Shown here: piece by piece, positions 7,538-37,504 of the stretch
Layout: each line of letters begins with the position of its first letter
Position numbering within the stretch: position 1 is the stretch's first letter
NCBI GenBank assembly: GCA_958295675.1
Contig: OY282360.1
Coordinates: forward strand, 52,133 to 116,132
Direction: 5' to 3'
Source of the DNA: Minisyncoccota bacterium
Lineage (GTDB): Bacteria; Patescibacteriota; Minisyncoccia; Phycocordibacterales; JABAAK01
Length of the DNA: 64,000 nt
Translations under genes and position numbers: made by a program
Notes under the pieces: generated by a model
What the model was told of the DNA's origin: nothing
Databases searched by the model: none
The model's input: only the letters and a program-made list of their open reading frames with translations

Positions 7538-7570
7538 AAAGGACACCCTTTTGGGTGTCCTTATTTTTTT
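7538..7570 (+). terminator. Rho-independent terminator (GGACACCC-tttt-GGGTGTCC + T9)
   Basis: Perfect 8-bp GC-rich stem, 4-nt loop, followed by TTATTTTTTT. Confidence 0.6.
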
Positions 7571-7579: not shown

Positions 7580-8920
7580 CTATATTTTCAGCATCCACAA
7601 AGAAAGATCAGTTTTGTTCACAAAAAAGAAGAATGCTCCGTCCTCGCTTATTCTCGGATTCACAACATCAAATGTTCTGTTATTTGATAGCCGTTGAATG
7701 TCGCTTTGATTGGGTGCCATAAGAAGTTTTTTCTCGCCGGTAACCGCATTGATCAGTATTATTGAATCGTTCAGTGTAATATCCCCCTGGTACCACGAAT
7801 CAGGAAAATGTGTTTCGTATCCGGATCGTGTTCTCGCCGGAACAGTGTTCGGAACAGCGCAAACGAATATTCCGTTAAAGCCGTCACATTTTTCCGGCAG
7901 AGTCATCGGCATCTTCACCACCTTTTCCCTTGATTGCTCAGTGATAACAGTGCTTCCGACCAATTCTCGTTTATTGGCTCGATACAAAACAAAATAACCG
8001 GACGATGTATCAACAAATGCCGAACCGCCGGACGGCACATTGACTAATTTATTTATCGGTATCTCATCCCTGGGATCAAGAAGGTACACATGACCTTTTG
8101 TGAGGTCGCTTATTGGCGTGGCGAGGGTGATGTACTCATTTCTTCCCCATTGCGGCAGCCAGTTAGTGAAATCTGATTCCCATATTACTTTTGTCTCTTC
8201 AGGGTTGGCAACATTAATCACCATACCGACAGTTTTATCATTAAACGACCTGACAAAGAAAAGATGGTTTGTATTGTTTGTTGCCACGCGGATATTGTTC
8301 TCAAACATTTGAATATTGTCAGATTCGGATGGCGTAAAAGAAACAAATGCTGATTTAATAACTGTTTCATCTTCCGGGTTCTCGTATAGCATCAGTGTTT
8401 TTCCGTTTGAAAATATATGGCTCTCCCGCACCCTGACAAACTCGCCCGGAGAAACGAAATTAAGTGAGTATGGGAATGTTTGAATACGATACCTATCACC
8501 TCTTCCGCCTTCAACAACTCGCACAATCCACCGTCCGTCAGCATTCTTATCAATGCGGTATCCGGCGGTCGGTCCGGCAAACAATCGAACTAATCTCGGC
8601 GCGCTTTCCGGTTCATTTTCCACTCTTTCTTCTTCGTCAGGAATAAAAAACACACGATCATCTCGCGGACCTTGATCATCAATATCGGTCACAGTATTAT
8701 CAGAAGGAAATTGCTGTTCGGGCAGCACTGTTATATTGTCAGCACCGAGCTGTCTTTCCGCTGTTGTTACAGCATCTCCGTTGCTCCGCTCAGTGGTACT
8801 TATATTCGGTTCGTTGTTGAAAATAAGAAAAAAAAGCAGAACAAGAGCAATAACTGACAGTAAAAAAATAATAGCAATCGTGATTTTTTTCCCTGTTAAT
8901 TTCATGCATGCAGTATACAA
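7580..8920 (-). CDS. Secreted/membrane-anchored hypothetical protein (last gene of the T4SS-like operon)
   Basis: 446 aa; N-terminal signal anchor (KKITIAIIFLLSVIALVLLFFLIF); likely start at the MKLTGKK codon (8905); no assignable domain. Confidence 0.6.
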   Translation of the reverse strand: MYTACMKLTGKKITIAIIFLLSVIALVLLFFLIFNNEPNISTTERSNGDAVTTAERQLGADNITVLPEQQFPSDNTVTDIDDQGPRDDRVFFIPDEEERVENEPESAPRLVRLFAGPTAGYRIDKNADGRWIVRVVEGGRGDRYRIQTFPYSLNFVSPGEFVRVRESHIFSNGKTLMLYENPEDETVIKSAFVSFTPSESDNIQMFENNIRVATNNTNHLFFVRSFNDKTVGMVINVANPEETKVIWESDFTNWLPQWGRNEYITLATPISDLTKGHVYLLDPRDEIPINKLVNVPSGGSAFVDTSSGYFVLYRANKRELVGSTVITEQSREKVVKMPMTLPEKCDGFNGIFVCAVPNTVPARTRSGYETHFPDSWYQGDITLNDSIILINAVTGEKKLLMAPNQSDIQRLSNNRTFDVVNPRISEDGAFFFFVNKTDLSLWMLKI

Positions 8921-8932
8921 TAACTATTATAC

Positions 8933-9550
8933 TTAATTACACCACCAGATATGCCAACACCCATCGTCGTCCGGCGGCTCTGCGACATCGTCACCCTTAT
9001 CACCTTTCTGGGTTTGTAAACTGGTTTGTGAGAGTCCAGAAAGGAGTTTTGAATCTAATAGCCTTGGGTTTATAAATTGTAAAATAAGATAGGAAAGCAA
9101 GAGCAAAACAATAGCGATAACAACACCAGTCAGCTTTGTTCGCATATCAAGCACCTTGCCCACATTGCCGCTCAATTTTCCGTAAATCATGCCGGTGCCA
9201 TGTACCGCAAGCATAATAACCGCGATTGTGCCGGCAAATGTGATTAGTATTTTGAGTAGTCCGTTGATTATATCACGCAACGTATCCCCATCCTTCTCAA
9301 CCGCGATTGTCTTCGTTCCGTTTGGTACTAAACCAAAAATATCTGTGACCAGTTTTAATTTTTTAAAACTTTCTTCCCCTCCTGGTAGTGGTATAGCTCT
9401 TATGTTTTCCGTTTCGAGATCTGCTGCTGCTTTTTTAGCATCTATTTCTTCTTCCTCTGCGATAACCGGATGAAACAGAAAGGCGAGAGTAAAAATGCTA
9501 TAAAACAACAGCAAATGTATAGTGTGCTTTTTGATTCTTCCTATTTTCAT
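8933..9550 (-). CDS. Candidate VirB2/TrbC-like pilin (signal peptide + two hydrophobic helices)
   Basis: Signal peptide MKIGRIKKHTIHLLLFYSIFTLAFLFHPVIA, acidic stretch, then two TM helices; placement inside T4SS-like operon; assignment by architecture only. Confidence 0.4.
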   Translation of the reverse strand: MKIGRIKKHTIHLLLFYSIFTLAFLFHPVIAEEEEIDAKKAAADLETENIRAIPLPGGEESFKKLKLVTDIFGLVPNGTKTIAVEKDGDTLRDIINGLLKILITFAGTIAVIMLAVHGTGMIYGKLSGNVGKVLDMRTKLTGVVIAIVLLLLSYLILQFINPRLLDSKLLSGLSQTSLQTQKGDKGDDVAEPPDDDGCWHIWWCN

Positions 9551-10508
9551 TTTCTGCCTGTATTCGCAGGGGTATAGTAACATCCTCCTGCCCATCCGCG
9601 GAAATATCAATTTTTCTACCTTCTTTGAGATGGTTTTGGTTGTTGTTCACAAACCACTTATATTGTATCGCATTTTTTTCAAAATCACCCTTACTGAAAT
9701 AAAACGGGTACACAGAGAAAGTTGCCGGTTTATCGTCGGATAAAGTAACATTTTTTGAGGCAGCGGCATTATCTGAAAGACCATGTAGGAGCGTTGAAGG
9801 ATAAACCAAAACCCTCGGTTCTGTTATAGGGACAAACAACACTCTTTCAAGCAACACATCGTTCCTGTTTATCAGCGTTGCTTCAACTCGCACAAAGACG
9901 GATTCACCAACATGTCGTGCACCCTTCCCGTACACCACACTACTGACCCCCGGTCCGCGGTCTTCAAGAAATTCAGATTTAACTTCCCAGCGAAACGAGA
10001 AATCGTCTTCTGTATATGTTGTGCCGTTTTGATCAATAAAATGTATTTTTGCGGAAATCTTTATCGGGGTTTCCGGGCTGACAAGACGGTGACCCCTATA
10101 CTGCGGTGTGGTCACCGCATCACCCTCCCACAGCAAATCAAAAACAATCGGTCTGACCCATTTTGTAACCTGCAAGGACCGCCTTTGGTCAAATGCGTTA
10201 AAATAAACAATATTCGCGACAATGTGTTTTGGGGAACTGTCAGTCGGCATGTCCAGCTGCAGTTTGTTTGCATATTGTTCCTGCTCATCGCCGTTGATGT
10301 ACCACCGAACCGATCGTATATTTGCCACCGAAGAACCGCCGGATCTGAGAGATGCTGTCACAAAACTGCCGGGAGATGGGTACTCTTCATCCAAAGAAAT
10401 GCTGTATGCGCCATGCTCTCCCTGCTGCGCGAGTGAAACTGTCGCTCCGACAAAAAACAGGAAAAGGAGGGTAATATAGGTAACGCAGGTGATATTTTTT
10501 ACATGCAT
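9498..10508 (-). CDS. Secreted hypothetical protein
   Basis: 336 aa with N-terminal signal peptide (…FFVGATVSLAQQ); part of co-directional operon. Confidence 0.55.
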   Translation of the reverse strand: MHVKNITCVTYITLLFLFFVGATVSLAQQGEHGAYSISLDEEYPSPGSFVTASLRSGGSSVANIRSVRWYINGDEQEQYANKLQLDMPTDSSPKHIVANIVYFNAFDQRRSLQVTKWVRPIVFDLLWEGDAVTTPQYRGHRLVSPETPIKISAKIHFIDQNGTTYTEDDFSFRWEVKSEFLEDRGPGVSSVVYGKGARHVGESVFVRVEATLINRNDVLLERVLFVPITEPRVLVYPSTLLHGLSDNAAASKNVTLSDDKPATFSVYPFYFSKGDFEKNAIQYKWFVNNNQNHLKEGRKIDISADGQEDVTIPLRIQAENENRKNQKAHYTFAVVL

Positions 10509-10573
10509 ACACAGTAGTATACATCACTACAGGGAAGTTACTTGTTTCTTCGTGAATACGGCGATCCTCAACG

Positions 10574-11083
10574 CTAATTTTTCAGCAACATCTTCGATAT
10601 TTCCCGTACCCGCAGAAACCACACAAAAAATGTCCAAAATGTAAAGCCGCCGACGAACGGCAATGATTCCACGAAAAAAACAAGAAGTCCGATAATACAA
10701 TCAAGCAGTGTGTAACTGCCTTTTGGTGTGGCGAGTACAATACTGAGAAATATACACAGCACGATGAGAGAAATGACAAAATGCAAGGTATACACACCAA
10801 GAGATGCACTTATAATAACCTCACCGGCTCGCTCTATATGCTCACCAACTTGCTCTATACTCTCAATCTTAAAATTAAAAAGCCAGTTCAGAGCATTGTT
10901 CACAACCTCGCCAAGCTTGCTCACAAGCTTGCCTACACCCTCAACAATGATACCTCCAGCAGCACCGATTGTTGCAGGCACTGCCGCCACAACCTGAAGA
11001 TTTAAAAAAACAACACCTATTGAATCAGCAATTGCAGCAATGCCGGTAAAAAAGAGCAGCGACATGGAAAGAGGTTTCTTCAT
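10574..11083 (-). CDS. Polytopic small membrane protein, translationally coupled to VirB4
   Basis: 169 aa, ~4 TM segments; start overlaps VirB4 stop by 4 nt (ATGA). Confidence 0.55.
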   Translation of the reverse strand: MKKPLSMSLLFFTGIAAIADSIGVVFLNLQVVAAVPATIGAAGGIIVEGVGKLVSKLGEVVNNALNWLFNFKIESIEQVGEHIERAGEVIISASLGVYTLHFVISLIVLCIFLSIVLATPKGSYTLLDCIIGLLVFFVESLPFVGGFTFWTFFVWFLRVREISKMLLKN

Positions 11084-12948
11084 ACCGTTTCCTGTTCATG
11101 GACAACAGGCGAGTCAGAGGTTTGGCTTTCAGGCGCACCTCCAATTTCTTCTTTCTTTGCCGCGGACTGTTGCGCCAACACCTGTGACGGATCGGAGGTG
11201 ATTATTTTATCTTCCGTCAGCGATGCGATTATTTTTATAGCAACCCTTTTAAGTCCGGCAATAAAAAGACCCTCGCCGAGACCTGCCTCTAAAAGCAGAT
11301 ATTTTTCATTATCAGTCAGGTTAAAAATCTCCTGTATTAAATCTATAGAAGTCGCCGATTGGCGCAGAAGCAGCACAAGTGATGCATTGTTCAATATTGG
11401 TTTCCCATATTTTGACCGAAGAAAGTCACTCACATCCTGTGTAATAGTACCGACACCGAGATAGTACTTTCTGCCCCGCTTCACAAGACCGAACAAAAAT
11501 GCCGCGGTATCATCCGATTGCATCATAATCCACGCTTCATCAACAACAAGCAGTCGTTTCTTCAGATTTTTTCGGACATTATTCCATATAAATCGGGTAA
11601 TAATATACATCGCCGCGGTTTTCAATTCGTCTTCCATATCACGAATTGAGAAGACGACAAACTGCTTGTCCATATCAACATTGGTCGGCTGGTTGATAAA
11701 ACCGGCCCACGAGCCGCTGGTATACCTGTCCAATCGCTCCGCAAGTTCTTCTCCGCCGTCAATGCCGGCAAGCACAAGCGCAAAATCAGACAAGAGAGGC
11801 GGCTCCATATTGCCGAACTCGCCGGACGGAGTGATGTCTTTCAACGCGTATGTTTCTCTGATGGCGCGGTCAACAATTGATTCTTCTTCCTGAGTTAAGC
11901 TGCCGAGCAGAACCCGGAAAAGACCTATAAGATTGATAATCGCACTCCGCAGTACATCGGCGGGGTTCTCATCCTCACCGACAGACGGCAAATCAAACGG
12001 ATTGATATGGTGGTGTGAATTAAGTGAGACATTAAAATACCTGCCTCCGGTTGCCTGCGCAAGCCGTTCAAACTCTTTTTCCGGATCTATAATAATAACA
12101 TTAGTGCCCACCATGAGTGATCGCAGCACTTCAAGTTTCATCGCGTATGATTTTCCCGCTCCAGATGTGGCGAATGTGACGGAGTTGTAGTTCGGCAGTG
12201 AGAAACGGTCAAACAGAATGAGAGATGCATTGTGTTCGTTAATGCCGTACAAGATACCTTTCTCAGACGATAAATCAAACGATACAAACGGGAACAAGCT
12301 CGCTAATGGTTCCGAATTTAATTTTGTGTGTATGGCGAGCAAATCAGTCCCGAAAGGACTGGTACTCCGGAATCCTTGTTCCTGCTGAAAGACGGTCGGC
12401 TTGACGAAAATAAGCCGCCCCTCAAGAATGGAGCGGACATCTTTCTCCACCTCATCAATTTCCTCAAGGTTTTCACCATAAATAGTGATATAAACACCAA
12501 CCTCAAACAGGCGTTCTGTCGCTTGCTGTATATTTGACCGCAAGGTCTCAAGGTCCTGATGAGCGGTATCTAGCTTCGGGTCACGCACCATTCCTTTCCG
12601 TTCCCGCTCAATAATCTGGCTTTCAACCTGCGCAACCTTTCTTCTGAATTTTCTCAGCACATCCTTTGATTCCATAGGGTGTATGTAAATAGCGATATCA
12701 AACTCCTTATTCATATTGATAATCGGAGAAAACCAGCCCTCATTGAGAAAACGCGGGTATGACACGATAGCGAAAGAGCGAACCACCTTATTGCCGAGAG
12801 AGATATTTTTTGGCGTAACCTGTATCGCTGCCGGAGCGATAACATCACGCAATCCGATGCTTGCCTGATCAAAAGATTCATGCGGAATGAAATGATCAAG
12901 GTCATTTTCTTCTTCCCTTCCTTTTTTTAAATTACTCAATAGACCCAT
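11080..12948 (-). CDS. VirB4/TraE/ConE-type type IV secretion ATPase, C-terminal 622 aa segment
   Basis: Walker A TSGAGKSYAMK, Walker B RLLVVDEAW; continuous in frame with upstream ORF across a single TAA. Confidence 0.85.
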   Translation of the reverse strand: MGLLSNLKKGREEENDLDHFIPHESFDQASIGLRDVIAPAAIQVTPKNISLGNKVVRSFAIVSYPRFLNEGWFSPIINMNKEFDIAIYIHPMESKDVLRKFRRKVAQVESQIIERERKGMVRDPKLDTAHQDLETLRSNIQQATERLFEVGVYITIYGENLEEIDEVEKDVRSILEGRLIFVKPTVFQQEQGFRSTSPFGTDLLAIHTKLNSEPLASLFPFVSFDLSSEKGILYGINEHNASLILFDRFSLPNYNSVTFATSGAGKSYAMKLEVLRSLMVGTNVIIIDPEKEFERLAQATGGRYFNVSLNSHHHINPFDLPSVGEDENPADVLRSAIINLIGLFRVLLGSLTQEEESIVDRAIRETYALKDITPSGEFGNMEPPLLSDFALVLAGIDGGEELAERLDRYTSGSWAGFINQPTNVDMDKQFVVFSIRDMEDELKTAAMYIITRFIWNNVRKNLKKRLLVVDEAWIMMQSDDTAAFLFGLVKRGRKYYLGVGTITQDVSDFLRSKYGKPILNNASLVLLLRQSATSIDLIQEIFNLTDNEKYLLLEAGLGEGLFIAGLKRVAIKIIASLTEDKIITSDPSQVLAQQSAAKKEEIGGAPESQTSDSPVVHEQETV

Positions 12949-12954
12949 ACGATG

Positions 12955-13566
12955 TTAGTATACCGCAGGCGGTGCTTGCGTGTCCCCAGGGTTAAATGTT
13001 TGATACAACAATTCGGTCACCTCTTCGGTGCCCAGCTGCACAGCACGCAGACCGAGAGAGCGAATATTGTTCTGTATGAAACCGACCCGCTGCAGCAGTT
13101 GTCCTTGCTGTTCCTCAAACTGCTTCTCTTTTTGTGTTTCAGTTTTTTTGAAGATTTGCAATCCACCTTTCCCTTTTGACTGCACCGGAGAGTAAGTAAC
13201 AATCACAAAGAATTGTTTGGTCATTATTTCATTCTGGTCGGTGAAATCTTTTATAAAATTAATGTATTCCTTTGTTTGCAGGCGAAGCAATTCATTCCCT
13301 TGTTTGTCATGAAGATCCTGCAGAAACTGAAGGTACGGCTTTATATTCAACCGTCTGGACTGTATAAGCACTTGAATACCAACCTCAAGAGAATTAAGCA
13401 GTGACTGAAATTGATACAGAATTGCCTCCCGCTCCGTTTCAGATTTTAAGTTAAAATTAAGAGCGGATACAAGCACAATTGCGCACAATACACCATCCTC
13501 ACGGACAATAATACCATCCTGTATCTCTCTGACAGGTACGAATGATTGTGTGGTGCTGTTTGTCAT
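12955..13566 (-). CDS. VirB4 N-terminal domain segment (203 aa), ends at an in-frame TAA 6 nt before the ATPase segment
   Basis: PVREIQDGIIVREDG…ALNFNLKSE resembles the N-terminus of Gram-positive-type VirB4 (ConE/TcpF/Orf16); same frame as 11080..12948. Confidence 0.7.
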   Translation of the reverse strand: MTNSTTQSFVPVREIQDGIIVREDGVLCAIVLVSALNFNLKSETEREAILYQFQSLLNSLEVGIQVLIQSRRLNIKPYLQFLQDLHDKQGNELLRLQTKEYINFIKDFTDQNEIMTKQFFVIVTYSPVQSKGKGGLQIFKKTETQKEKQFEEQQGQLLQRVGFIQNNIRSLGLRAVQLGTEEVTELLYQTFNPGDTQAPPAVY

Positions 13567-14000
13567 ATAGTTACTTCAATATCATCATCAGGAGCATCGT
13601 CAAACATAAGGTTAGTATTCAGATCATTCACTTTATTTGAATCATGAGTGGCCGCGCTTGACACATCTTCCGAGGTGCTTTGCCGCATTTTCCGTTCCAC
13701 ATATTTTTCATTTCCTTCCTTTTTCCACACATACATTTTTTTGCCGGTAAAAAAACGGATTATTGACTGCAGTACAACTGAGAACGGCTGATTGTTAAAA
13801 TTGAAAAACGCAAGCAATCCCGCGAGGAGCGCGACAGGGGACCCCAAAAACAAGGCGGGCAAGAAACCACCGGCAAAAAAGAAAAGAAATATCATAAAAC
13901 CACCCGCACCGCCGAGATACAACAACTGTTTAAAACTGAGCCCGAAGATGATAGTATCGGAAACATCCAAACTTTGCGGAACTTGAAAGCGCATACGCAC
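13563..14000 (-). CDS. PrgI/VirB3-like small membrane protein
   Basis: 145 aa, two adjacent TM helices, sits immediately upstream of VirB4 with 4-nt overlap, as VirB3/PrgI does in conjugation loci. Confidence 0.55.
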   Translation of the reverse strand: MRMRFQVPQSLDVSDTIIFGLSFKQLLYLGGAGGFMIFLFFFAGGFLPALFLGSPVALLAGLLAFFNFNNQPFSVVLQSIIRFFTGKKMYVWKKEGNEKYVERKMRQSTSEDVSSAATHDSNKVNDLNTNLMFDDAPDDDIEVTI

Positions 14001-14083
14001 ACAGTATACAACATATCAACAGCGCAAGACCAAACTCACGATCAAATCATGTATTACCACCTTCGTCCGTCCGAGGTCTGCCA

Positions 14084-16549
14084 TCACTCCCTGCCGCCGG
14101 GTCGTGGTGTTCCTTTTCTTGCAGCATTTACTTCCTGCCCAAAGTTGCCGATATCTGTTATTACCGGTTGCCCACCTCCTGGCGGTTGTGCAGGAGATGT
14201 TGGTGTTGTTGTCGGTGGTGGTGTTGTCGGTGGCGGCGTTGTCGGTGGTGGTGTTGGTGACCCACCACCACCTGCTAATATTTTTTCTGCCCTCCTCTTC
14301 ATATTTGGTTTTACATTAGGGTGTTTTTCAATAATTTCTGCTTGATAACGCGGTACTGTCGGACGGTTAAGAACAGTGTTCATAACACCAGTATTATTTG
14401 TATCCCCATCCATTGCACCCTTAATCATTTGTTTAAATTTCTCTTCCCCTTTTTCTCCACCGTCCTTCATCGTCTGACTTTGATTGAGAATATCATTGAT
14501 AACAGCACCACTTGCTTTTTTAACAAGTTTTTCAAACATTTCATCATATTGAGGTGCGGCAATATCACCGGGCACTTTTTTAACAATCTCAGATCGCAAT
14601 TTCATATTTTTATCCCCTGCGTAACTATTCAGAACATCAACATATGACCCTTCGTTATCATTCATATCTTCAATATTTTTCTCAATCTTCGCTTCCTCTG
14701 TTTTCATTCTCCTGATATCTTTTTCAATATTTGCCCTTCTGCTTGCTTTTTCAGGTTCTGTGATGTTTCGCGTGTTAAGATTCCTGATCATTTCCTCCGC
14801 TTGTCTTATATTTTCTTGAACTCCACTGAGTTCCTCATTCTCTTTGTTTCTCTCCTTATCATTTTCTTTAAGGTATGATATGGTCCCGTTAATGGATTTG
14901 ATCTGCTCTTTCTCATCAAGTTTTGCCGGCTCATATACCGATTGTTTTTGAATATTTTCCCTCGCCGCATTTCGGATAGCGATGTCAAGTTTCCCGTCAT
15001 CTGTTATTTTTTTCAAAGTTCTGGTCGAAGTATTTTTATTATTTGCAATCGCCTTCCAAGTCGCCTCATCTTTTTTGGCACCCTTTTCATTACCTTTTTT
15101 GAGACCTTGTTTAAGTATATTTAGTTGAGCCGCACTCAAGGTGTCGTTGGCGGCAAGAGTGGATCCGAAGCCGTTCTCTTTCAGATGTCTTACCTCTCTA
15201 TCCAAAAGTCCCGATGATTTGGCAAGTTTCATCTTCTCATCATATGTGCCGTCAACAACATCAGACCACCTTTCTCTCTGCTCGTTTCGCGTAGCGCGTA
15301 GTTCCTGTATACCTTTTTTCGCCTCTGGAGTGATTTTCTTCCCCCCGAGCACATCCTTGGCGACAGCGGTGTACGCTTTTCCGGTTCTATTGAGGTTTCG
15401 GAATGTTCGCCCCAAAAAAGCTCCCGCTCCAACCCCCACTCCGGTCTTTTGAGCAATCTTACCAAGAGTATTGCTCACGCGACCTGCCGGCAACATTCCC
15501 GCAACATTGCGGGCGATACCGAAGGATGCGCGACCAACAATACCTGCGCCTCGGGGCGAAACAAACTTGCGCAAGTGTTTACCAATCTCAAACTTGCCAA
15601 TCTTTATACTACTGACAATGCGACCCACATAGAAAATGCCGAAGATAAACACAATACTCACAATACACAATTCAACAAGAAATGCTTCAGTATTCGATGC
15701 ATTGTCCTTGAGTATCTTGTTGTTCGCTGTAGCGAATATGTTAAATATAATCAAAAAGCCAAAAATAAGCATGACCGGGGTCAGCAATGCCCTTCTGAAC
15801 ATGTCCTGCCATGTCTCAAAGAACTGCGCGATCATCTTAACACCCGGCGCCTCACGCACCTCTTTGGTAAAAAACCCTAAAAATGCAAGGGGTGATGAGA
15901 TGACCAATAAGATGGCGAGTATAAATCGTTCAATAAGCAGAATGGCAAACCACACAAAACCAAATGAAACAAAAAAGGTTGTAATAGCACCGATTGTTTG
16001 ATAAAGAAATCTCCATAATCCTGACTCAAATACGCCATCCAACCCCTCTTGAGTAGTAAAAAGACCTGTTTGCATAAGATGCTCAATCTCCACCACAGAG
16101 AGAACAGCAATAAACAGAGCGTTTGAAATGTCAAATAACGCTAACACAAAAAAAGCACTGAAGTTTACAAGCAGCGCCACCGCAAGCAGACCAAGTAAAA
16201 TTTTCTTGTTTCTCTCCCAATTTCCGAAAAGCGTGGTTATGGCGGTCAATATAAAGAACACCACAATGAGTAAATTGACGATATCCCGCACCGTCTGCCA
16301 AACGGGCTGCAATCCCAAATCTGTGGTCCAAAAATCGGCAAAATCAAGAATTGTGTACTGAATAACAAACAAAAAAAGTTTTATGCACAAGGCGAAAAAT
16401 CCATTGGCAGCATCCAATAATGCTGAACCCAACATATTACCGATTGCATTAAAAATAGCATATACCTCTATCGGGAATAATATTAACAGCAGCACAAAAA
16501 AGAGAAGCACTCTCAATATTGGTATGTTTTTTTGAAAAGATGTGCGCAT
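14084..16549 (-). CDS. VirB6/TrbL-like polytopic membrane protein with long coiled-coil and Pro/Thr-rich C-terminal tail
   Basis: 821 aa; ~8 TM segments in N-terminal 330 aa; C-terminal ~480 aa hydrophilic, K/E-rich, ending PTPPPTTPPPTTPPPTTTPTSPAQPPGGGQP. Confidence 0.6.
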   Translation of the reverse strand: MRTSFQKNIPILRVLLFFVLLLILFPIEVYAIFNAIGNMLGSALLDAANGFFALCIKLFLFVIQYTILDFADFWTTDLGLQPVWQTVRDIVNLLIVVFFILTAITTLFGNWERNKKILLGLLAVALLVNFSAFFVLALFDISNALFIAVLSVVEIEHLMQTGLFTTQEGLDGVFESGLWRFLYQTIGAITTFFVSFGFVWFAILLIERFILAILLVISSPLAFLGFFTKEVREAPGVKMIAQFFETWQDMFRRALLTPVMLIFGFLIIFNIFATANNKILKDNASNTEAFLVELCIVSIVFIFGIFYVGRIVSSIKIGKFEIGKHLRKFVSPRGAGIVGRASFGIARNVAGMLPAGRVSNTLGKIAQKTGVGVGAGAFLGRTFRNLNRTGKAYTAVAKDVLGGKKITPEAKKGIQELRATRNEQRERWSDVVDGTYDEKMKLAKSSGLLDREVRHLKENGFGSTLAANDTLSAAQLNILKQGLKKGNEKGAKKDEATWKAIANNKNTSTRTLKKITDDGKLDIAIRNAARENIQKQSVYEPAKLDEKEQIKSINGTISYLKENDKERNKENEELSGVQENIRQAEEMIRNLNTRNITEPEKASRRANIEKDIRRMKTEEAKIEKNIEDMNDNEGSYVDVLNSYAGDKNMKLRSEIVKKVPGDIAAPQYDEMFEKLVKKASGAVINDILNQSQTMKDGGEKGEEKFKQMIKGAMDGDTNNTGVMNTVLNRPTVPRYQAEIIEKHPNVKPNMKRRAEKILAGGGGSPTPPPTTPPPTTPPPTTTPTSPAQPPGGGQPVITDIGNFGQEVNAARKGTPRPGGRE
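14196..14280. repeat. Short tandem DNA repeat (GGTGGTGGTGTTGTCGGTGG units) encoding a PPTTPPPTT low-complexity tail
   Basis: Directly visible triplicated ~27-nt unit within the VirB6-like gene. Confidence 0.6.
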
Positions 16550-16557
16550 ACTCTATA

Positions 16558-18186
16558 TTACTCAAAAAACAACAGAATGTACTCCGGAGGAAGAGATTTT
16601 TGAATTCTGGTAATTGAATCGGTCATCTCCTTTTCTATTTTACCTCGGAACACACCGGCATTCCGATAGAGTGCGCGGGCATCTGATGCACTCAAATCCT
16701 TCCAAGTTCTCGTCAAGGCACTCAGATCGTTTTCTCCGACAAACACTCTTCCGAGTGAACTATATGCCTCCGAACGCCGCTGAGCCGCGGCGAAATCATA
16801 ATTCTCAAAATCGATTGATGGGGGTGTCAACGCCTGCTGTGCGGATGATGTCGGAAGAGTAACCTGTCCGGCATGTCCGAGCGCAAACAGGAGGTAAGCA
16901 ACCTCTTCTGTTTTTTGCGGCACGGTGTTTAGCATCAATGTAACTGCATTCCCAAAATCATTCAATGTGCAGTTTGTTTTGTATTTACCGGAGACAACCG
17001 GCGGTACCGGCGGATAGTGCCTTCCCAAACATGTCCGATCAGTCTCGTTCTCAAGGCATACAAACCTCCCTGTCTGACCCAATGTGGTAATATTCCTAAT
17101 TTCCGAAGAGGAATAGTGTCGTGCTGAACACTGCGCTTCCTCTTCTCCTTCATGGCACCCCATCTCTTGTGTTGTACATACTTCAGTTTCTGCGTTTTCC
17201 GCGCATACTCGCACATAGTTAACAAAACATCCGGGAAGAAAATCAAGGTCGTTGCGGTTTTGTACAAAAACACGCGCTGTTCCTGATCCAAAGGCGCGCC
17301 GCGTTGTTTCTTCAACCACCTGTCTCAATGAAATGCCCTGATAAAGAGATCTTTGTCCATCTTCACTCCTTTGTATATGCGTTTGATATCCGTTGAGAGA
17401 ACCGCCGTTCCCATAATCCTCATAAGTACCGACAAGTTCAATATATGCCTTTGCGGTTGTTTCATACACACCCTTCATGATAGACAGTCGACTCCGGTCT
17501 GTTTTCAATCCGCACCACGAATCAATAAACGGAGCGCGCTGTAGGTAGGAAGAGGGTCGTTTGATCATGTCAATAAGCTTCGCTCCTCCTCTGTATTGTT
17601 TGATCGCGCCGTCATGCACACCGATAAGATTGTTTTCCGGTCGGAGCACCGGTGTAGTTACAGTAAGATGTTCGGCAGAATCAAGCAGGGGTTCAGCAAC
17701 GCCATTTTGTGAATTCAAGGGGTTTTGATTCGTAACTGTGGCGATTGAAGAGGTCGCGCAGTTAATAGCAGAATCTGCCGTAAACAATAAAGTGTTCGGC
17801 ATTAATAAGGACGGAGTTCTGATATTTTTTAATATATATGAAAAAAGTGTGCTTCCGTCCCGAATAAGGATGTCGGCGACCACTAGTTCCATATATGTTT
17901 TGTTAAAAGAAACGCCGTTGAGTAAATTGACATCTTGCCCTATCCCTGCATTTCGGTTTATTGCTGTTTGTTCCGATGATATCCTCGGAATTTGTTCAAT
18001 ATAACTTCTGATACGGTCAATCTGCTGCTGTCGCTGTTTGATTTTTTGAGCAATTTGATCAATACTCAATTCACTTTTGCGGATGGTTTGAGCTGATACA
18101 GCATTATACTGACAAGAAACAAGAATAAAAAACAGAAAGAAAGCAAGAAAGATAAGGTGCGTGATTTTTGTTACATATATCGTCAT
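16558..18186 (-). CDS. Secreted Cys-containing hypothetical protein
   Basis: ~542 aa from ATG at 18186; signal anchor LIFLAFFLFFILVSCQ; multiple Cys in the C-terminal half. Confidence 0.55.
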   Translation of the reverse strand: MTIYVTKITHLIFLAFFLFFILVSCQYNAVSAQTIRKSELSIDQIAQKIKQRQQQIDRIRSYIEQIPRISSEQTAINRNAGIGQDVNLLNGVSFNKTYMELVVADILIRDGSTLFSYILKNIRTPSLLMPNTLLFTADSAINCATSSIATVTNQNPLNSQNGVAEPLLDSAEHLTVTTPVLRPENNLIGVHDGAIKQYRGGAKLIDMIKRPSSYLQRAPFIDSWCGLKTDRSRLSIMKGVYETTAKAYIELVGTYEDYGNGGSLNGYQTHIQRSEDGQRSLYQGISLRQVVEETTRRAFGSGTARVFVQNRNDLDFLPGCFVNYVRVCAENAETEVCTTQEMGCHEGEEEAQCSARHYSSSEIRNITTLGQTGRFVCLENETDRTCLGRHYPPVPPVVSGKYKTNCTLNDFGNAVTLMLNTVPQKTEEVAYLLFALGHAGQVTLPTSSAQQALTPPSIDFENYDFAAAQRRSEAYSSLGRVFVGENDLSALTRTWKDLSASDARALYRNAGVFRGKIEKEMTDSITRIQKSLPPEYILLFFE

Positions 18187-18188
18187 AC

Positions 18189-20690
18189 TTATGATTCTGA
18201 TGCACACTCTTCTCCCGCCTCTCTGATTTGTGCGCAAACATCAGAAAGGATATTTTCAACCTGAGAATGCACAAGGTTGAGATTATTCAATTCCTGCTCA
18301 AGGCGTTGTATACGATTAGTATATTCCTCATGAATGTCTTCATCTTCCTCCGTCCTCCTATCTATTCGAGATTGTTCAATCTGGGCGCGAATGTTTTCTT
18401 GCTCTTGTTCAATTTTTTCTTTCTCTGACATAAGTATGTTTCTAGATTCTCTATAACTACCAAGAAACAATGCTGCTTGACCTGTTTGGTTTGGTGTCGG
18501 GTTCTGGTTAGGATTATCATCTTGGAATTTAGTTCGAGAAGGTCTCGGCTGTTCGTCTCGAGTACCAGTCGGTCTATACTCATCACCGCTAATAGACCTG
18601 ACCAGCACACTCCCCCTTCCGTACGCTTTTCCACGTCCTTCTGTTATTGATTTTTTGATAAGACCGCCAACTGTCGCATCAACCACCTTTTGAAACACCT
18701 CACCCATCTCATCAGCTTCGGTAACCGGTTCAATCTGCAGATCTATAAACTTTTCCGCTCGATTGTTTATATTTTGTGCTGTTTGGTTAATTCTACAGCG
18801 AAGAAGATTTATTCTTGCCTCAGCACTATCTGTCTCACCAACCTCTTTCACTTCATCCGTGCAATCAAAAGCGGCGAGTGTGTCATCTTCAGCAAGGTTT
18901 GTGGAGCCGGGTGTTTGTTCGCCAATTTCTCTTGCGATCTCGTCAACTCTTCTCTGTTGTATGTGTCTCTGCATACCCAGCGATCCTCCGGTTTCTGCAA
19001 CATAATGTCCGAACAGCTTTGTCGTTTGATTAATCAAATTCTGCACCTCTCTGTTAATGCTTTCTCTCGGTCTGGTTCGCGGAACAGATCCGGAAGATAT
19101 ATTCACCGCACCTGAAATATTGATATCAAAAGGATTTTCCGCAAATTCTCTTAAATTATTTTTAAAATCAGACAGGGTGCACCTTGGTCTTTGAATTTGC
19201 GGTCGGGTGTACTGGATAGAGAGAATATTGGATATGTCAATCTCCACGCCATCAATATCACAGAGAAAACCAAGACCTTCCCGCTCCAACGCATCGCCGA
19301 TCGCTCTGTCTGTAAAATCTTTCCAGAACTGATTCGGATGTGATATGAAAAGTGGTCTACCATTAAAACCATCCATTGCAAAATTTATATATTCATTAGC
19401 AATATCAGCAGCTATTTCTTTAGCCCAATTATTGATATCAATATCACTAAAGCATTCCTTAAAAATATTTGGTCCATCAAGGTTTGCAACAGAAGTTGTT
19501 GCCACGAGGTTTGCAGCCAACCCGGCTGTGACACATGCGGCCATTGGACCAATCGTCGAAAAAGCCAACCCTTTTAATGCATTCTTAACAAAGTCATCCT
19601 CTTCATAACTACCCTCCTCAAAATTAAAATTCGGTCCATCTCCCGCGCTATATTGTGGGTCACCAAAGTCCAAAGGCGGTTGTCCGTCACCGCTCGGAAA
19701 CACAATACCCGGGAAATCAGCGGGAACAGCGGTTTGGTCAAAGGGGTTGCTACCCCCTTCGGAACCAGAAGGAGTGCTGTCCGGTGCATGCCGCGCCACA
19801 CACTCTGCATCAGTTTCATTCACAAAACACACATATTGTTTGCCGTCAATGGTTCGTACTTCAAACTGCGATTCAAAGCGATGTCTCGTGAGACACTCCG
19901 CATCAGTTTCATCTTTATGGCACAGAAGTTGCTGTGTTGTACATACCCGTTCTTCACCTTCACCGACGCACACCTCAATAGATCTGTACTCTGACTGTGC
20001 CGTATGCCGCGCCACACACTCCGCATCAGTTTCATTCACAAAACACACATATTGTTTGCCGTCAATGGTTCGTACTTCAAACTGCGATTCCAAGCGATGT
20101 CTCGCGAGACATTCCGCATCAGTTTCATCTTTATGGCACAGAAGTTGCTGTGTTGTACATACCCGTTCTTCACCTTCACCGACACACACTTCAATAGCTC
20201 TGTACTCTGATTGTGCTGTATGCCGCGCCACACACTCCGCATCAGTTTCATCTGTAAAGCACATAAATTGTTTGCCGTCAATGGTTCGTACTTCAAGACG
20301 GGCCAAATTCCTTTCCCGGCACTCTTCGTCAGTTTCGTCAGTGAAACACACCAATTGCCGTGTTGTACAGAATTCCCGCCCATCGCTTTCAATGCAAATT
20401 TCCATATTTTGTACCACAGTCCCTTGTATCACGGTTCCCTGTACCACAGTCCCTTGTATTCCACCTCGAGGAATACCTATTAAAAGACCGCCGTCCGGTG
20501 TGCCGGAGGCGACACGGTCCGAAAAAGGCGTACCGGATCCTCCATCACCGCCATTGAAACCAACATTGAAAACAAGCCAACCGCCAAGCGCTAAAGAGAG
20601 CACAACAACAACTCCCAGCACAATAGAAACCAAAGCAATACCACTATTGTCAGAGAAATATTTGTTCATACACACACAGTATACTCTCAA
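18189..20690 (-). CDS. Large membrane-anchored surface protein with tandem 82-aa Cys-rich acidic repeats
   Basis: 833 aa; N-terminal TM IALVSIVLGVVVVLSLALGGWLVF; ~3.5 repeats of CFTDETDAECVARHTAQSEYR…CVGEGEERVCTTQQLLCHKDETDAEC; coiled-coil C-terminus. Confidence 0.6.
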   Translation of the reverse strand: MRVYCVCMNKYFSDNSGIALVSIVLGVVVVLSLALGGWLVFNVGFNGGDGGSGTPFSDRVASGTPDGGLLIGIPRGGIQGTVVQGTVIQGTVVQNMEICIESDGREFCTTRQLVCFTDETDEECRERNLARLEVRTIDGKQFMCFTDETDAECVARHTAQSEYRAIEVCVGEGEERVCTTQQLLCHKDETDAECLARHRLESQFEVRTIDGKQYVCFVNETDAECVARHTAQSEYRSIEVCVGEGEERVCTTQQLLCHKDETDAECLTRHRFESQFEVRTIDGKQYVCFVNETDAECVARHAPDSTPSGSEGGSNPFDQTAVPADFPGIVFPSGDGQPPLDFGDPQYSAGDGPNFNFEEGSYEEDDFVKNALKGLAFSTIGPMAACVTAGLAANLVATTSVANLDGPNIFKECFSDIDINNWAKEIAADIANEYINFAMDGFNGRPLFISHPNQFWKDFTDRAIGDALEREGLGFLCDIDGVEIDISNILSIQYTRPQIQRPRCTLSDFKNNLREFAENPFDINISGAVNISSGSVPRTRPRESINREVQNLINQTTKLFGHYVAETGGSLGMQRHIQQRRVDEIAREIGEQTPGSTNLAEDDTLAAFDCTDEVKEVGETDSAEARINLLRCRINQTAQNINNRAEKFIDLQIEPVTEADEMGEVFQKVVDATVGGLIKKSITEGRGKAYGRGSVLVRSISGDEYRPTGTRDEQPRPSRTKFQDDNPNQNPTPNQTGQAALFLGSYRESRNILMSEKEKIEQEQENIRAQIEQSRIDRRTEEDEDIHEEYTNRIQRLEQELNNLNLVHSQVENILSDVCAQIREAGEECASES
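19780..20400. repeat. Intragenic tandem repeat, 246-bp period, ~2.5 copies
   Basis: Near-identical 246-nt units visible in the DNA and as repeated 82-aa blocks in both strands' translations. Confidence 0.7.
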
Positions 20691-21595
20691 TTTTCAGACG
20701 AAACACCTGATTGCAGTGAATTCACAACAGATAGTGCGATATTGATAAATGCGTTACGAGCCCCCTCTGTAGTCGGATCTTGAATATGTTGGAACATTTT
20801 TCCTGTAGTAAGCAGCTTGATCGCATAAAAATAGTTTTCCGCGGTATTGGATGCAACAGCGACATCAAGAGCTTCACAAAGATAGGTTATTCTCTCCAAA
20901 ATAAGATAATACGATTCATATACATCATTCGGCACATTTCTCGGTATAGTTTTCAGTGTAAAATCACATGCCGCTTGAACTCTTTTTGTGTCGGGAGACA
21001 CCGCGGTATTTTTTGCGAAAATCTCAAATACAAGATCGCCTATCGGTTGTTTTTCTTTAGAAAAAGATTGGAGTGCAAGCAGAAACTCACTCAGTACCAT
21101 CTCTCGGGAAACTGTGTTGTCAATATTCAAATGAACACGAGGCAAACCGCGCCGCTCAACCCGTTTCAGAAAATAGTCAGTGGATATATCAACAAATTGA
21201 TCTTTTTCTTCCGGAGAAACCTCAGAACCGTCAATATCACCCAGCAAGAACCTCATTACAATATCCTCAGTGAACTCCCCCGGACCGCCATACAACAATT
21301 CGTTAACGGTTATATTCTTGGTCAAGGCAATATCTTTGTGATACGGAAAAGAAGAGGCATTCAACGGATCGGATTCGGTGATATCTTCAAGCCAATCAGG
21401 AACACCATCACCATCACTGTCTGATTCTGTTGTGTGGGTTTCAAGACGAATACCGTGTTCGTCCAATTGGGATGTTGGCGTAGATTTCGAGAAAAAAATA
21501 ATAAGGAACACTGCGGCAAAAAAGATAAACAGCAACGCGATTCGTTTGCGAACAAGGGGTATGTTTTTAGGAAGTAATCGCATACCGTACAGCAA
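20687..21595 (-). CDS. Membrane-anchored hypothetical protein (first gene of the T4SS-like operon)
   Basis: 302 aa; N-terminal TM IALLFIFFAAVFLIIFF; acidic DSDGDGVPDW stretch. Confidence 0.55.
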   Translation of the reverse strand: MLYGMRLLPKNIPLVRKRIALLFIFFAAVFLIIFFSKSTPTSQLDEHGIRLETHTTESDSDGDGVPDWLEDITESDPLNASSFPYHKDIALTKNITVNELLYGGPGEFTEDIVMRFLLGDIDGSEVSPEEKDQFVDISTDYFLKRVERRGLPRVHLNIDNTVSREMVLSEFLLALQSFSKEKQPIGDLVFEIFAKNTAVSPDTKRVQAACDFTLKTIPRNVPNDVYESYYLILERITYLCEALDVAVASNTAENYFYAIKLLTTGKMFQHIQDPTTEGARNAFINIALSVVNSLQSGVSSEN

Positions 21596-21617
21596 TCATG
21601 GTACCATAATATGCATA

Positions 21618-22016: not shown

Positions 22017-22031
22017 CATATTACATACAGA

Positions 22032-31599: not shown

Positions 31600-31689
31600 A
31601 ATGCCAGTATATATGGGTGGTAAGGAATATGCAATAACACAAAACCTGTGCATCACACTGATGTGCAGAATGCATACTACAATATATAT

Positions 31690-32550: not shown

Positions 32551-32570
32551 GCGATGTATACTGACGGTGT

Positions 32571-37484: not shown

Positions 37485-37504
37485 AAAATGTATTCCATTG
37501 CCGG

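What the first reader, a model, noticed from the sequence alone, without database searches (positions are those of the whole stretch)
7580..21595. Fourteen-kb co-directional T4SS-like operon lacking coupling protein and relaxase, enriched in secreted proteins
Ten tightly packed minus-strand genes, several with 4-nt ATGA overlaps, encode VirB4, PrgI/VirB3-like, VirB6-like and a candidate VirB2-like pilin. Five large secreted or membrane-anchored proteins have no assignable domains. No VirD4, relaxase, VirB1 hydrolase, VirB8 or VirB11 is recognisable. This minimal Gram-positive-type set plus many exported unknowns suggests a non-conjugative role such as DNA uptake, surface-filament assembly or host-cell attachment, rather than plasmid transfer.
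Basis: partly seen in the sequence, partly recalled or inferred. Interest (0 to 1): 0.6.

Follow-up and report, generated by a model that had tools for sequence, protein, structure and literature searches.

The report
Patescibacteria chromosomal type IV secretion locus
This is the chromosomal, relaxase-less type IV secretion gene cluster that nearly all ultra-small CPR/Patescibacteria carry next to their replication genes; it is real and biologically important, but it was already described in 2020-2025, so the finding is a rediscovery.

Summary
Window 7580-21595 (minus strand) carries 11 (not 10) packed genes. Six exported or membrane proteins have no Pfam domain. No VirD4, relaxase, VirB1, VirB8 or VirB11 is recognisable anywhere in the 64 kb.

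The window comes from a Paceibacteria (Kaiserbacteria-like) chromosome of about 0.72 Mb. The cluster lies between ksgA/uvrD and yidC/rnpA/dnaA/dnaN, and this order is conserved in about 20 related loci. The core VirB6-PrgI-TrsD-VirB4 order holds across the 80 fetched CPR loci where the flank allows. So it is vertically inherited and not an ICE.

This is the "Patescibacteria T4SS" of Quinonero-Coronel et al. 2025 (PMC12102498). Its Saccharibacteria counterpart is essential for epibiotic growth (Wang et al. 2023, PMC10633639).

Small additions:
- Structure models show g01 as an anchored 7-bladed beta-propeller and g03 as an anchored string of three Ig-like domains.
- g10 carries a widespread uncharacterised Cys-containing domain.
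- At least five genes have their own leaderless TATACT promoter-like box, so a single "operon" is doubtful.

Verdict: already known, modest interest.

The parts
20687..21595 (-). g11: N-terminally membrane-anchored exported protein (302 aa) with a thrombospondin-type-3 Ca-binding motif (DSDGDGVPDWLE) and a roughly 200-aa C-terminal domain of unknown fold. It is the first gene after ksgA. The start codon is uncertain (TTG 21595 or ATG 21583).
   Evidence: One TM at residues 19-37. Weak PF18884 TSP3_bac hit. The family profile hits only the Ca-binding repeat of Bap (7c7r, 4e-5). Homologues sit at the same position in L004, L005, L027, L028 and L033.
18189..20669 (-). g10: membrane-anchored exported protein (826 aa). 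It has three 72-aa Cys-rich repeats (residues ~80-300), a conserved uncharacterised domain (residues ~360-700, invariant C470 and C497) and a C-terminal coiled coil.
   Evidence: TM at 10-28 and 26 Cys. A 216-bp tandem DNA repeat at 19788-20296. 410 library representatives at E<=1e-3, all matching residues ~360-700. Invariant columns. No Pfam, NCBIfam or PDB identity. A domain homologue lies 5-9 kb upstream of virB4 in 18 loci.
16558..18186 (-). g09: signal-peptide or anchored exported protein (542 aa, 11 Cys) carrying one copy of the g10 Cys-rich module. It is lineage-specific, with no homologue in the 80 fetched loci.
   Evidence: TM/SP at 5-23. BLASTP against g10 gives 40% identity over 72 aa, E = 9e-14. 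No tblastn hit in any locus. No Pfam, NCBIfam, PHROG or PDB hit.
14084..16549 (-). g08: extended VirB6-like polytopic membrane protein (821 aa). It has a signal peptide, about 8 TM helices in the first 310 aa, a charged coiled-coil-rich tail and a Pro/Thr linker.
   Evidence: TM prediction. 12 of 43 syntenic homologues hit PF04610 TrbL/VirB6. The family profile hits TrwI (VirB6 of R388, 7o3v_F) at E = 3.2e-4. The profile finds a homologue upstream of virB4 in 64 loci.
13563..13994 (-). g07: PrgI/VirB3-like small membrane protein (two TM helices). Its stop overlaps the start of g06 (ATGA).
   Evidence: PF12666 PrgI 3.7e-11, above the cut-off. TM at 24-42 and 44-62. Homologue directly upstream of TrsD/VirB4 in 71 of 80 loci.
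12955..13566 (-). g06: TrsD-like protein, i.e. the VirB4 N-terminal domain encoded as a separate 203-aa polypeptide.
   Evidence: NCBIfam NF041427 TrsD 7.6e-7. It also matches positions 2-146, 7-180 and 100-239 of three VirB4 models. Present next to virB4 in 79 of 80 loci at 31-72% identity.
11080..12948 (-). g05: VirB4-type ATPase (622 aa) of the MPF-FATA/CD1110 type, lacking the N-terminal domain that g06 supplies.
   Evidence: Walker A at residue 260 and Walker B at 466. 50-86% identical homologues across CPR classes.
10574..11083 (-). g04: small polytopic membrane protein (169 aa, 4 predicted TM) whose start overlaps the VirB4 stop (ATGA). A similar small polytopic ORF follows virB4 in related loci.
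   Evidence: TM prediction. Junction sequence. Homologues in L001-L003. Positional analogues of 130-196 aa with 2-4 TM in L003, L004, L005 and L028. No family hit.
9498..10508 (-). g03: N-terminal TM helix followed by three Ig-like beta-sandwich domains (336 aa). It is a surface stalk or adhesin-type protein, not VirB8-like.
8933..9550 (-). g02: VirB2-like T4SS pilin precursor (205 aa from the ATG at 9550). It has a signal peptide, a ~65-aa spacer, two hydrophobic helices and a short Cys-containing tail.
   Evidence: PF18895 2.3e-4, PF04956 1.2e-3 and NF045849 1.8e-4, all below the curated cut-offs. Hydrophobic segments at 13-31, 98-116 and 133-151. 13 of 14 aligned pilin-like ORFs (the window's own plus 13 from related loci) hit PF18895, best 8.4e-9.
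7580..8905 (-). g01: N-terminal TM anchor, a ~70-aa disordered linker and a 7-bladed beta-propeller (441 aa from the ATG at 8905). It is the last gene of the cluster.
7539..7562 (.). GC-rich hairpin (AAGGACACCC-TTTT-GGGTGTCCTT) between the convergent gene ends 7533(+) and 7580(-). It is terminator-like and marks the downstream boundary of the cluster.
   Evidence: Terminator scan.
20678..20683 (-). TATACT -10-like box 8 nt upstream of the g10 ATG. Equivalent boxes lie at 14003-14008 (g07), 12957-12962 (g05), 10516-10521 (g03) and 8912-8917 (g01). These are putative leaderless promoters that would split the cluster into several transcription units.
   Evidence: The pattern TATACT-N5-9-ATG occurs 17 times in the window against 2.15 expected, and 0 of 100 shuffles reach 17.

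Best explanation
The cluster is the chromosomal, vertically inherited type IV secretion system characteristic of Patescibacteria (CPR), here in a Paceibacteria/Kaiserbacteria-like genome. It descends from the conjugation machinery of monoderm bacteria (MPF-FATA type) and has lost the DNA-processing half (relaxase, adjacent coupling protein).

Shown here:
- An intact VirB4 ATPase, split into a TrsD-like N-domain protein and the ATPase proper.
- A PrgI/VirB3 membrane partner.
- An extended VirB6 polytopic protein.
- One VirB2-like pilin.
- Six co-located exported or membrane proteins, five of which have conserved positions in related genomes.

Inferred mechanism:
- VirB4 and TrsD dock on PrgI and VirB6 in the cytoplasmic membrane.
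- ATP hydrolysis extracts processed pilin from the membrane and polymerises it into a short T4SS pilus or conduit through the cell wall.
- The anchored surface proteins build or decorate the extracellular part and contact the host bacterium. These are the beta-propeller g01, the three-Ig stalk g03, the Ca-binding g11 and the Cys-rich g09 and g10.

The machine serves the episymbiotic lifestyle through contact-dependent exchange of macromolecules with a host cell, not plasmid transfer. I favour a pilus or contact conduit used for transfer across the symbiont-host interface. The direction of transfer and the substrate are unknown.
For: Identity of the core parts:
- VirB4.
- TrsD/VirB4 N-domain.
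- PrgI.
- VirB6 by family-level homology.
- Pilin by family-level homology and architecture.

Taxon and inheritance:
- The closest VirB4 homologues are all CPR, at 50-86% identity.
- The PrgI-TrsD-VirB4 order is conserved in 71-79 of 80 loci, and VirB6 lies upstream in 64.
- The whole order ksgA-g11-g10-VirB6-PrgI-TrsD-VirB4-small TM-g03-pilin-g01-(yidC, rnpA)-dnaA-dnaN recurs in Paceibacteria loci.
- GC content is like the flanks.

Not conjugative:
- No relaxase or T4CP in 64 kb.

Literature:
- The same system, components, lack of relaxase and oriC-proximal location are described for 2,417 Patescibacteria genomes (PMC12102498).
- The Saccharibacteria homologue SEML1_0006-0019 is essential for epibiotic growth, has no recognisable coupling protein or relaxase, and has essential pilins (PMC10633639).
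- The review PMC12857230 takes the same view.

Surface accessory proteins:
- TM anchors.
- Confident propeller and Ig-like models.
- g10-domain relatives fused to discoidin or Ig domains.
Against: - No function was tested here. Essentiality data exist only for one Saccharibacterium, not for Paceibacteria.
- The pilin and VirB6 of this window do not reach curated family cut-offs on their own.
- No VirB8-like or cell-wall hydrolase component was found, so the model of the envelope-spanning part is incomplete.
- Assigning g01, g03, g09, g10 and g11 to the machine rests only on conserved neighbourhood. In the two closest relatives (L001, L002) the g03-pilin-g01 module is not next to virB4.
- A VirD4-like gene elsewhere in the genome could not be checked.
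Confidence: 0.85

Rival explanations
1. An ordinary integrated conjugative element (or its decayed remnant), whose coupling protein, relaxase and oriT lie outside the reader's coordinates.
For: VirB4 is of the MPF-FATA conjugative type. A tyrosine recombinase gene lies about 10 kb away at 31648-32550. VirD4-like genes are common elsewhere in CPR genomes (PMC12102498).
Against: - No relaxase or T4CP in the whole 64 kb.
- The locus is flanked by ksgA/uvrD and yidC/rnpA/dnaA in the same order in many Paceibacteria species.
- VirB4 is 50-86% identical across classes and tracks taxonomy (PMC12102498).
- GC content is not deviant.
- All core genes are intact.
- The recombinase sits among housekeeping genes, looks Xer-like, and is separated from the cluster by PNPase, ComM and UvrD.
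Confidence: 0.03
2. A T4SS-derived DNA (or nucleotide-source) import machine, analogous to ComB of Helicobacter or Ced of Sulfolobales, that pulls host DNA into the symbiont.
For: - The system lacks a relaxase, as import systems do.
- CPR cannot synthesise nucleotides de novo.
- The authors of PMC12102498 favour import of DNA or other macromolecules.
- In the ABY1 class the locus neighbours comF, recG and radA.
- There is a weak partial CedB match, 5e-8, far below the cut-off.
Against: - The window already encodes the canonical uptake route: ComEC 59107-60627, ComM 24968-26509 and a type IV pilin 32571-33290.
- In S. epibionticum, transformation depends on comEC, which is dispensable for growth, whereas the T4SS is essential. 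Any import would therefore have to bypass ComEC.
- No DNA-binding or nuclease component is recognisable in the cluster.
Confidence: 0.2
3. A protein-effector exporter, like the T4CP-less Ptl or Brucella VirB systems, that injects or releases proteins to manipulate or lyse the host bacterium.
For: T4CP-less effector systems exist (PMC12857230). Wang et al. suggest protein export as the alternative to DNA transport. McLean et al. noted a resemblance to ptx/ptl. Many Sec-dependent exported proteins are encoded in the cluster.
Against: No candidate effector with a toxin or enzyme domain is recognisable in or next to the cluster. The exported proteins look structural or adhesive: propeller, Ig-like, Ca-binding, Cys-rich repeats.
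Confidence: 0.25
4. A pure surface-filament or adhesion organelle: VirB4 is used only to assemble a VirB2-type pilus and present adhesins, and nothing passes through it.
For: The VirB2-like pilin is conserved next to virB4, which is unusual for monoderm T4SS (PMC12857230). The pilins are essential in S. epibionticum. The accessory proteins have adhesin-like folds.
Against: Type IV pili already provide adhesion and motility in CPR (a pilin gene lies at 32571). Retention of an extended VirB6 channel protein suggests that a translocation function is kept.
Confidence: 0.2

Closest known systems
Patescibacteria-clade T4SS (Quinonero-Coronel et al. 2025, PMC12102498), with the experimentally studied example Southlakia epibionticum ML1 SEML1_0006-0019 (Wang et al. 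2023, PMC10633639)
   Same: VirB4, adjacent TrsD, PrgI/VirB3, VirB6 and a VirB2-like pilin near virB4. No relaxase and no adjacent T4CP. A chromosomal site next to dnaA, dnaN, rnpA and ksgA, as reported for Paceibacteria. A monoderm-type component set.
   Different: - One pilin gene instead of the 6-gene pilin array of S. epibionticum.
- No recognisable lysozyme-like protein (SEML1_0006) or NTF2/VirB8-like protein (SEML1_0012).
- Instead, a Paceibacteria-type accessory set: anchored beta-propeller, three-Ig protein, Ca-binding protein and g10-domain protein. As far as I read the papers, these are shown only as unannotated grey genes.
MPF-FATA conjugative T4SS of Firmicutes (pCF10 Prg/Pcf, pGO1 Trs, CTn2 CD1110 family)
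   Same: VirB4 scores above the curated cut-off of the CD1110-family model. PrgI and TrsD homologues are present. There is a VirB6-like polytopic protein. No outer-membrane core components.
   Different: No T4CP (PcfC), relaxase (PcfG), VirB1-type hydrolase (PrgK) or VirB8-like protein (PrgL/PrgD) detected. It has a VirB2-like pilin, which Gram-positive systems lack. It is chromosomal and vertically inherited rather than on a mobile element.
T4SS-derived DNA-uptake systems (ComB of Helicobacter pylori; Ced of Sulfolobales)
   Same: A VirB4-type ATPase with membrane partners, no relaxase, and a non-conjugative use of a T4SS.
   Different: Only a partial, sub-threshold CedB match. There are no ComB-type VirB7-10 components. 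The genome also has ComEC, ComM and a type IV pilin for uptake.
T4CP-less effector exporters (Bordetella Ptl, Brucella VirB)
   Same: They work without a coupling protein and export Sec-delivered or other proteins. McLean et al. noted the locus resemblance for TM7x.
   Different: Those are diderm MPF-T systems with VirB7-11. No toxin or effector gene is recognisable here.

Membership tests
Patescibacteria-clade T4SS (PMC12102498) | VirB4 belongs to the CPR-specific clade nested in MPF-FATA | tested here: met
   The best family model is the CD1110 (MPF-FATA) VirB4, above its cut-off. All of the closest 120 database hits and 80 genome loci are CPR or unclassified MAGs at 50-86% identity. No formal tree was built.
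Patescibacteria-clade T4SS (PMC12102498) | TrsD (VirB4 N-domain-like) gene associated with virB4 | tested here: met
   12955-13566: NF041427 TrsD 7.6e-7 and N-terminal regions of VirB4 models. Adjacent to virB4 in 79 of 80 loci.
Patescibacteria-clade T4SS (PMC12102498) | PrgI/VirB3 and VirB6 homologues near virB4 | tested here: met
   PrgI PF12666 3.7e-11. VirB6 by family-level evidence: 12 of 43 homologues hit PF04610, and the profile hits TrwI at 3e-4. The window protein alone has no significant hit.
Patescibacteria-clade T4SS (PMC12102498) | VirB2-like pilin gene(s) near virB4 | tested here: met
   8933-9550: sub-threshold PF18895/PF04956/NF045849 hits plus a signal peptide and two TM helices. 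13 of 14 aligned pilin-like ORFs (the window's own plus 13 from related loci) hit PF18895.
Patescibacteria-clade T4SS (PMC12102498) | No relaxase, and usually no T4CP, next to virB4 | tested here: met
   No relaxase or VirD4/TcpA/FtsK-type domain in any ORF of the 64-kb window. The rest of the genome was not searchable.
Patescibacteria-clade T4SS (PMC12102498) | Chromosomal context near dnaA, dnaN, rnpA and ksgA (Paceibacteria pattern) | tested here: met
   dnaN 3014-4126, dnaA 4359-5720, rnpA 6034-6324, yidC 6361-7095 and ksgA 22032-22796. Same order in L003, L004, L005, L027 and L028.
Patescibacteria-clade T4SS (PMC12102498) | Required for epibiotic growth | not testable with these tools
   Known only from Tn-seq in S. 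epibionticum.
Conjugative T4SS / integrative conjugative element | Relaxase (MOB) and oriT | tested here: not met
   None in the 64-kb window. Whole genome not tested.
Conjugative T4SS / integrative conjugative element | Type IV coupling protein (VirD4/TcpA) | tested here: not met
   None in the window. CPR genomes often have one far from virB4, which is not testable here.
Conjugative T4SS / integrative conjugative element | Mobile-element signature: variable presence, insertion-site repeats, deviant composition | tested here: not met
   Conserved synteny with housekeeping genes across species. GC 0.435 against flanks of 0.414 and 0.473. Flanking repeats were not specifically searched.
Gram-positive MPF-FATA T4SS (full component set) | VirB1-type cell-wall hydrolase and VirB8-like (NTF2) protein | tested here: inconclusive
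   No hydrolase or NTF2 domain by Pfam, NCBIfam or PHROGs. The g01 and g03 models are a propeller and Ig-like domains, not NTF2. The g09, g10 and g11 folds were not modelled.
DNA-uptake T4SS (Ced/ComB) | CedB/ComB4-type ATPase with cognate CedA or ComB6-10 partners | tested here: not met
   The CedB model gives only 31.9 bits over 75 positions against a cut-off of 700. No ComB/VirB7-10 homologues.

The most novel reading that the evidence does not exclude
The class-conserved exported proteins around the core form a so-far undescribed extracellular module of the Paceibacteria T4SS. These are the anchored 7-bladed beta-propeller g01, the three-Ig stalk g03, the Ca-binding g11 and the g10 Cys-containing domain family (410 representatives in the 50%-identity protein library). 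In this reading they replace the missing VirB8, VirB1 and adhesin functions and determine host-cell recognition. The fast-evolving Cys-rich repeat proteins g09 and g10 would act as host-specificity determinants.
Probability: 0.35. Interest if true: 0.5.

Novelty: already known. Interest (0 to 1): 0.3.

Why it matters
CPR/Patescibacteria make up a large share of bacterial diversity and appear to live attached to other microbes. This T4SS is one of the few machines they all keep in genomes of about 0.7 Mb, and in the one tractable species it is essential. What it transports is an open question, and the answer would explain how these symbionts feed on or manipulate their hosts.

The present locus adds no new kind of system. 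It is a clean, complete Paceibacteria example, with a single pilin and a compact accessory set. The fold assignments made here for two accessory proteins, and the delineation of a widespread g10 domain, could guide structural or cryo-ET work.

Tried and rejected
1. ICE hypothesis. I scanned all sizeable ORFs of the 64-kb window against Pfam. There is no relaxase or T4CP, so I rejected it for the window.
3. Naming the g10 conserved domain. Pfam and NCBIfam scans of 37 family members and a PDB profile search gave nothing consistent. Only 2 of 37 hit DUF4141, and a few have fused discoidin, Ig or pentapeptide domains. A literature search for DUF4141 was uninformative.
4. g09 as a divergent g10-domain protein. 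The hmmsearch was not significant. The two share only the 72-aa Cys-rich module.
5. g11 and g09 against PDB sequences and PHROGs. Only the Ca-binding repeat matched.
6. Locating the source contig by exact VirB4 look-up: not on record.
7. afdb50 fold search: library unavailable.
8. DnaA-box clustering to place oriC: no enrichment.
9. Direct BLASTP of g06 against g05 to show the split: not significant, as expected for complementary rather than paralogous parts. The split is shown instead by model coordinates.
Full report
**Observation**

Window 7580-21595 holds eleven consecutive minus-strand ORFs. After refining start codons they are:

| Gene | Coordinates |
|---|---|
| g11 | 20687-21595 |
| g10 | 18189-20669 |
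| g09 | 16558-18186 |
| g08 | 14084-16549 |
| g07 | 13563-13994 |
| g06 | 12955-13566 |
| g05 | 11080-12948 |
| g04 | 10574-11083 |
| g03 | 9498-10508 |
| g02 | 8933-9550 |
| g01 | 7580-8905 |

It also missed that g06 is a T4SS component. True ATGA start/stop overlaps exist at two junctions, g07/g06 and g05/g04. The third four-base overlap (20687-20690) depends on an unlikely TTG start.

**Core components**

- **g05 is a VirB4 ATPase.**
  - Pfam gives TraG P-loop 8.6e-24, plus AAA_10 and DUF87.
  - NCBIfam's 'VirB4-like conjugal transfer ATPase, CD1110 family' scores 369.5 bits against a curated cut-off of 325.
  - The solved VirB4 C-terminal domain 4ag5 matches at 9e-43.
  - Walker A (ATSGAGKS, residue 260) and Walker B (LLVVDE, residue 466) are intact. 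They are conserved in 79/79 and 74/79 homologues.
- **g06 is the separately encoded VirB4 N-terminal domain (TrsD).**
  - g05 matches only positions 180-733 of the 752-position VirB4 model.
  - g06 matches positions 2-146 of the same model, and the TrsD subfamily model at 7.6e-7.
- **g07 is PrgI/VirB3** (PF12666 3.7e-11, two TM helices).
- **g08 is VirB6-like.**
  - It has no significant family hit itself.
  - It has a signal peptide, about eight TM helices and a 500-residue charged tail, the 'extended VirB6' layout.
  - Of its 43 syntenic homologues, 12 match PF04610 TrbL/VirB6.
  - The profile built from the family finds the R388 VirB6 TrwI as best solved-structure match, E = 3.2e-4.
- **g02 is a VirB2-like pilin.**
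  - It has a signal peptide and two hydrophobic helices.
  - Its matches to PF18895, PF04956 and the mycoplasma ICE pilin model are all sub-threshold.
  - Of 14 aligned pilin-like ORFs (g02 plus 13 from related loci), 13 match PF18895.

**Where it sits**

The window is a piece of a CPR/Patescibacteria chromosome. An identical VirB4 is on record from a 724,510-bp contig. The nearest genome loci are Kaiserbacteria/Paceibacterota MAGs at 76-83% identity, followed by Giovannonibacteria, Azambacteria, Andersenbacteria, Moranbacteria and Saccharibacteria at 50-62%.

The cluster is bracketed by housekeeping genes:
- On one side: ksgA, uvrD, comM and PNPase.
- On the other: yidC, rnpA, dnaA and dnaN.

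No ORF in the 64 kb has a relaxase, VirD4/TcpA, VirB1, VirB8 or VirB11 domain. GC content (0.435) is like the flanks.

**Conservation**

- In the 80 loci fetched around VirB4 homologues, TrsD is adjacent in 79 and PrgI in 71. A VirB6-family protein lies upstream in 64.
- In about 20 Paceibacteria-type loci the full order recurs: (uvrD)-ksgA-g11-g10-VirB6-PrgI-TrsD-VirB4-small polytopic protein-g03-pilin-g01-(yidC, rnpA)-dnaA-dnaN. Offsets from virB4 are nearly fixed.
- This is vertical inheritance under purifying selection, not a mobile element.
- g09 has no homologue in any locus. It shares a 72-residue Cys-rich module with g10, which in g10 is a 216-bp tandem DNA repeat.
- In the two closest relatives (L001, L002) the g03-pilin-g01 module is not next to virB4, so the linkage is not absolute.

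**The 'domain-less' exported proteins**

All five have an N-terminal anchor or signal peptide.
- Neither is VirB8-like nor a hydrolase.
- **g10:** it contains a conserved domain (residues ~360-700, two invariant cysteines) with 410 representatives at E <= 1e-3. In some relatives it is fused to discoidin or Ig domains. It has no Pfam, NCBIfam or PDB identity.
- **g11:** it has a thrombospondin-type Ca-binding motif.

**Is it one operon?**

Probably not.
- The motif TATACT-N5-9-ATG occurs 17 times in the window against 2.15 expected.
- Most of these matches end exactly on a gene start. Five are inside the cluster, before g10, g07, g05, g03 and g01.
- Shine-Dalgarno-like sequences are rare.
- This suggests several leaderless transcription units. 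That is an inference and needs TSS mapping.

**Comparison with what is known**

- Quinonero-Coronel et al. 2025 (PMC12102498) describe this system in 2,417 of 3,035 Patescibacteria genomes. Their description covers:
  - a monophyletic VirB4 clade nested in MPF-FATA;
  - TrsD, PrgI/VirB3, VirB6 and VirB2-like pilins near virB4;
  - relaxases almost always absent, and T4CP homologues usually far away;
  - in Paceibacteria, a location next to dnaA, dnaN, rnpA, ksgA and rpmH.
- McLean et al. 2020 (PMC7427843) had already noted VirB4, VirB6 and VirB2 in Saccharibacteria.
- Wang et al. 2023 (PMC10633639) showed by Tn-seq that the S. epibionticum cluster, including its pilin array, is essential for epibiotic growth. 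They found no recognisable coupling protein or relaxase.
- A 2025 review calls these systems the most exciting newcomers of the T4SS superfamily (PMC12857230).
- I found no paper up to mid-2026 that establishes the substrate.

**Mechanism**

- *Shown:* the parts list and its conservation.
- *Inferred from established T4SS biology:*
  - VirB4 with TrsD docks on PrgI and VirB6 in the membrane.
  - It uses ATP to extract processed VirB2-like pilin and assemble a pilus or conduit through the wall.
  - The anchored propeller, Ig-stalk, Ca-binding and Cys-rich proteins form or decorate the extracellular part and contact the host cell.
- *Function:* contact-dependent exchange with the host. I rank the options as follows.
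  - A transfer conduit, whether for protein export or macromolecule import, is more likely than a purely adhesive filament.
  - DNA import via the normal competence route is unlikely to be the essential role. ComEC, ComM and a type IV pilin are encoded separately in the window, and comEC is dispensable in S. epibionticum.

**Differences from the Saccharibacteria prototype**

- One pilin gene rather than six.
- No recognisable lysozyme-like or NTF2-like neighbour.
- A Paceibacteria-specific accessory set instead.

These are variations within a known kind.

**Verdict**

The feature is real and correctly interpreted, but already known. Interest is modest (0.3). The residual novelty lies in the accessory proteins and in the leaderless promoter organisation.

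Noticed in passing
window-wide; e.g. 8903-8917(-), 10506-10521(-), 12946-12962(-), 13992-14008(-), 20667-20683(-), 32557-32573(+), 35618-35632(-), 45974-45988(+), 50460-50476(+), 54194-54211(+): A -10-like box TATACT lies 5-9 nt upstream of many ATG start codons: 17 matches against 2.15 expected, with 0 of 100 shuffles reaching 17. With a looser box, 23 of 61 predicted genes have one, while only 6 have a Shine-Dalgarno-like motif. This suggests widespread leaderless mRNAs in this organism. A literature search found no clear description of this for CPR.
   Followed up: partly
window 37500-48000: A low-GC stretch (0.364 against 0.432 for the window) holds an EcoRI-type adenine methyltransferase (42538-43566), a GmrSD-N/HNH endonuclease (41445-42536), a superinfection-immunity-domain protein (45023-45751) and three ORFs without Pfam hits (37505-41258). 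Four tRNA genes are interspersed (Gly 44033, Pro 44874, Pro 45863, Gly 48782). It looks like a horizontally acquired defence island.
   Followed up: partly
window 24968-26509(-), 32571-34120(+), 57360-60627(+): Competence and type IV pilus-related genes lie outside the T4SS cluster. They are ComM (Mg-chelatase-like), a prepilin-type N-methylation-motif protein followed by an overlapping exo/endonuclease-phosphatase family gene, and RecJ followed by ComEC. They are relevant because they provide a DNA-uptake route independent of the T4SS.
   Followed up: partly
window ~46000-49000 versus dnaA at 4359-5720: Cumulative GC skew reaches its minimum near 44-48 kb. Gene orientation switches there too: mostly minus strand from 3 to 48 kb, plus strand from 49 kb. 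This is about 42 kb from dnaA. The replication origin may therefore not be adjacent to dnaA. DnaA-box-like 9-mers are not enriched anywhere (21 found against 18.6 expected), so the origin position stays unresolved.
   Followed up: partly
window 19788-20296 and 16558-20669(-): A 216-bp tandem repeat (2.4 copies, 94% match) encodes a 72-aa Cys-rich module (C-x-ETD-x-EC...RH). There are three copies in g10 and one diverged copy in the neighbouring g09. The long + strand ORF 19747-20745 is a shadow of this repeat. The module has no family assignment.
   Followed up: partly
window 21596-22031: A 436-bp stretch lies between ksgA and the first gene of the cluster. It has no convincing ORF on the minus strand and no Rfam match. 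It may hold the upstream promoter or regulatory region of the cluster.
   Followed up: no
window 35799-37484(+) and 26516-28423(-): The lysyl-tRNA synthetase is of class I (PF01921), the archaeal-type enzyme. A 635-aa ORF between comM and PNPase has no Pfam or PHROG hit and no homologue in the fetched loci.
   Followed up: no
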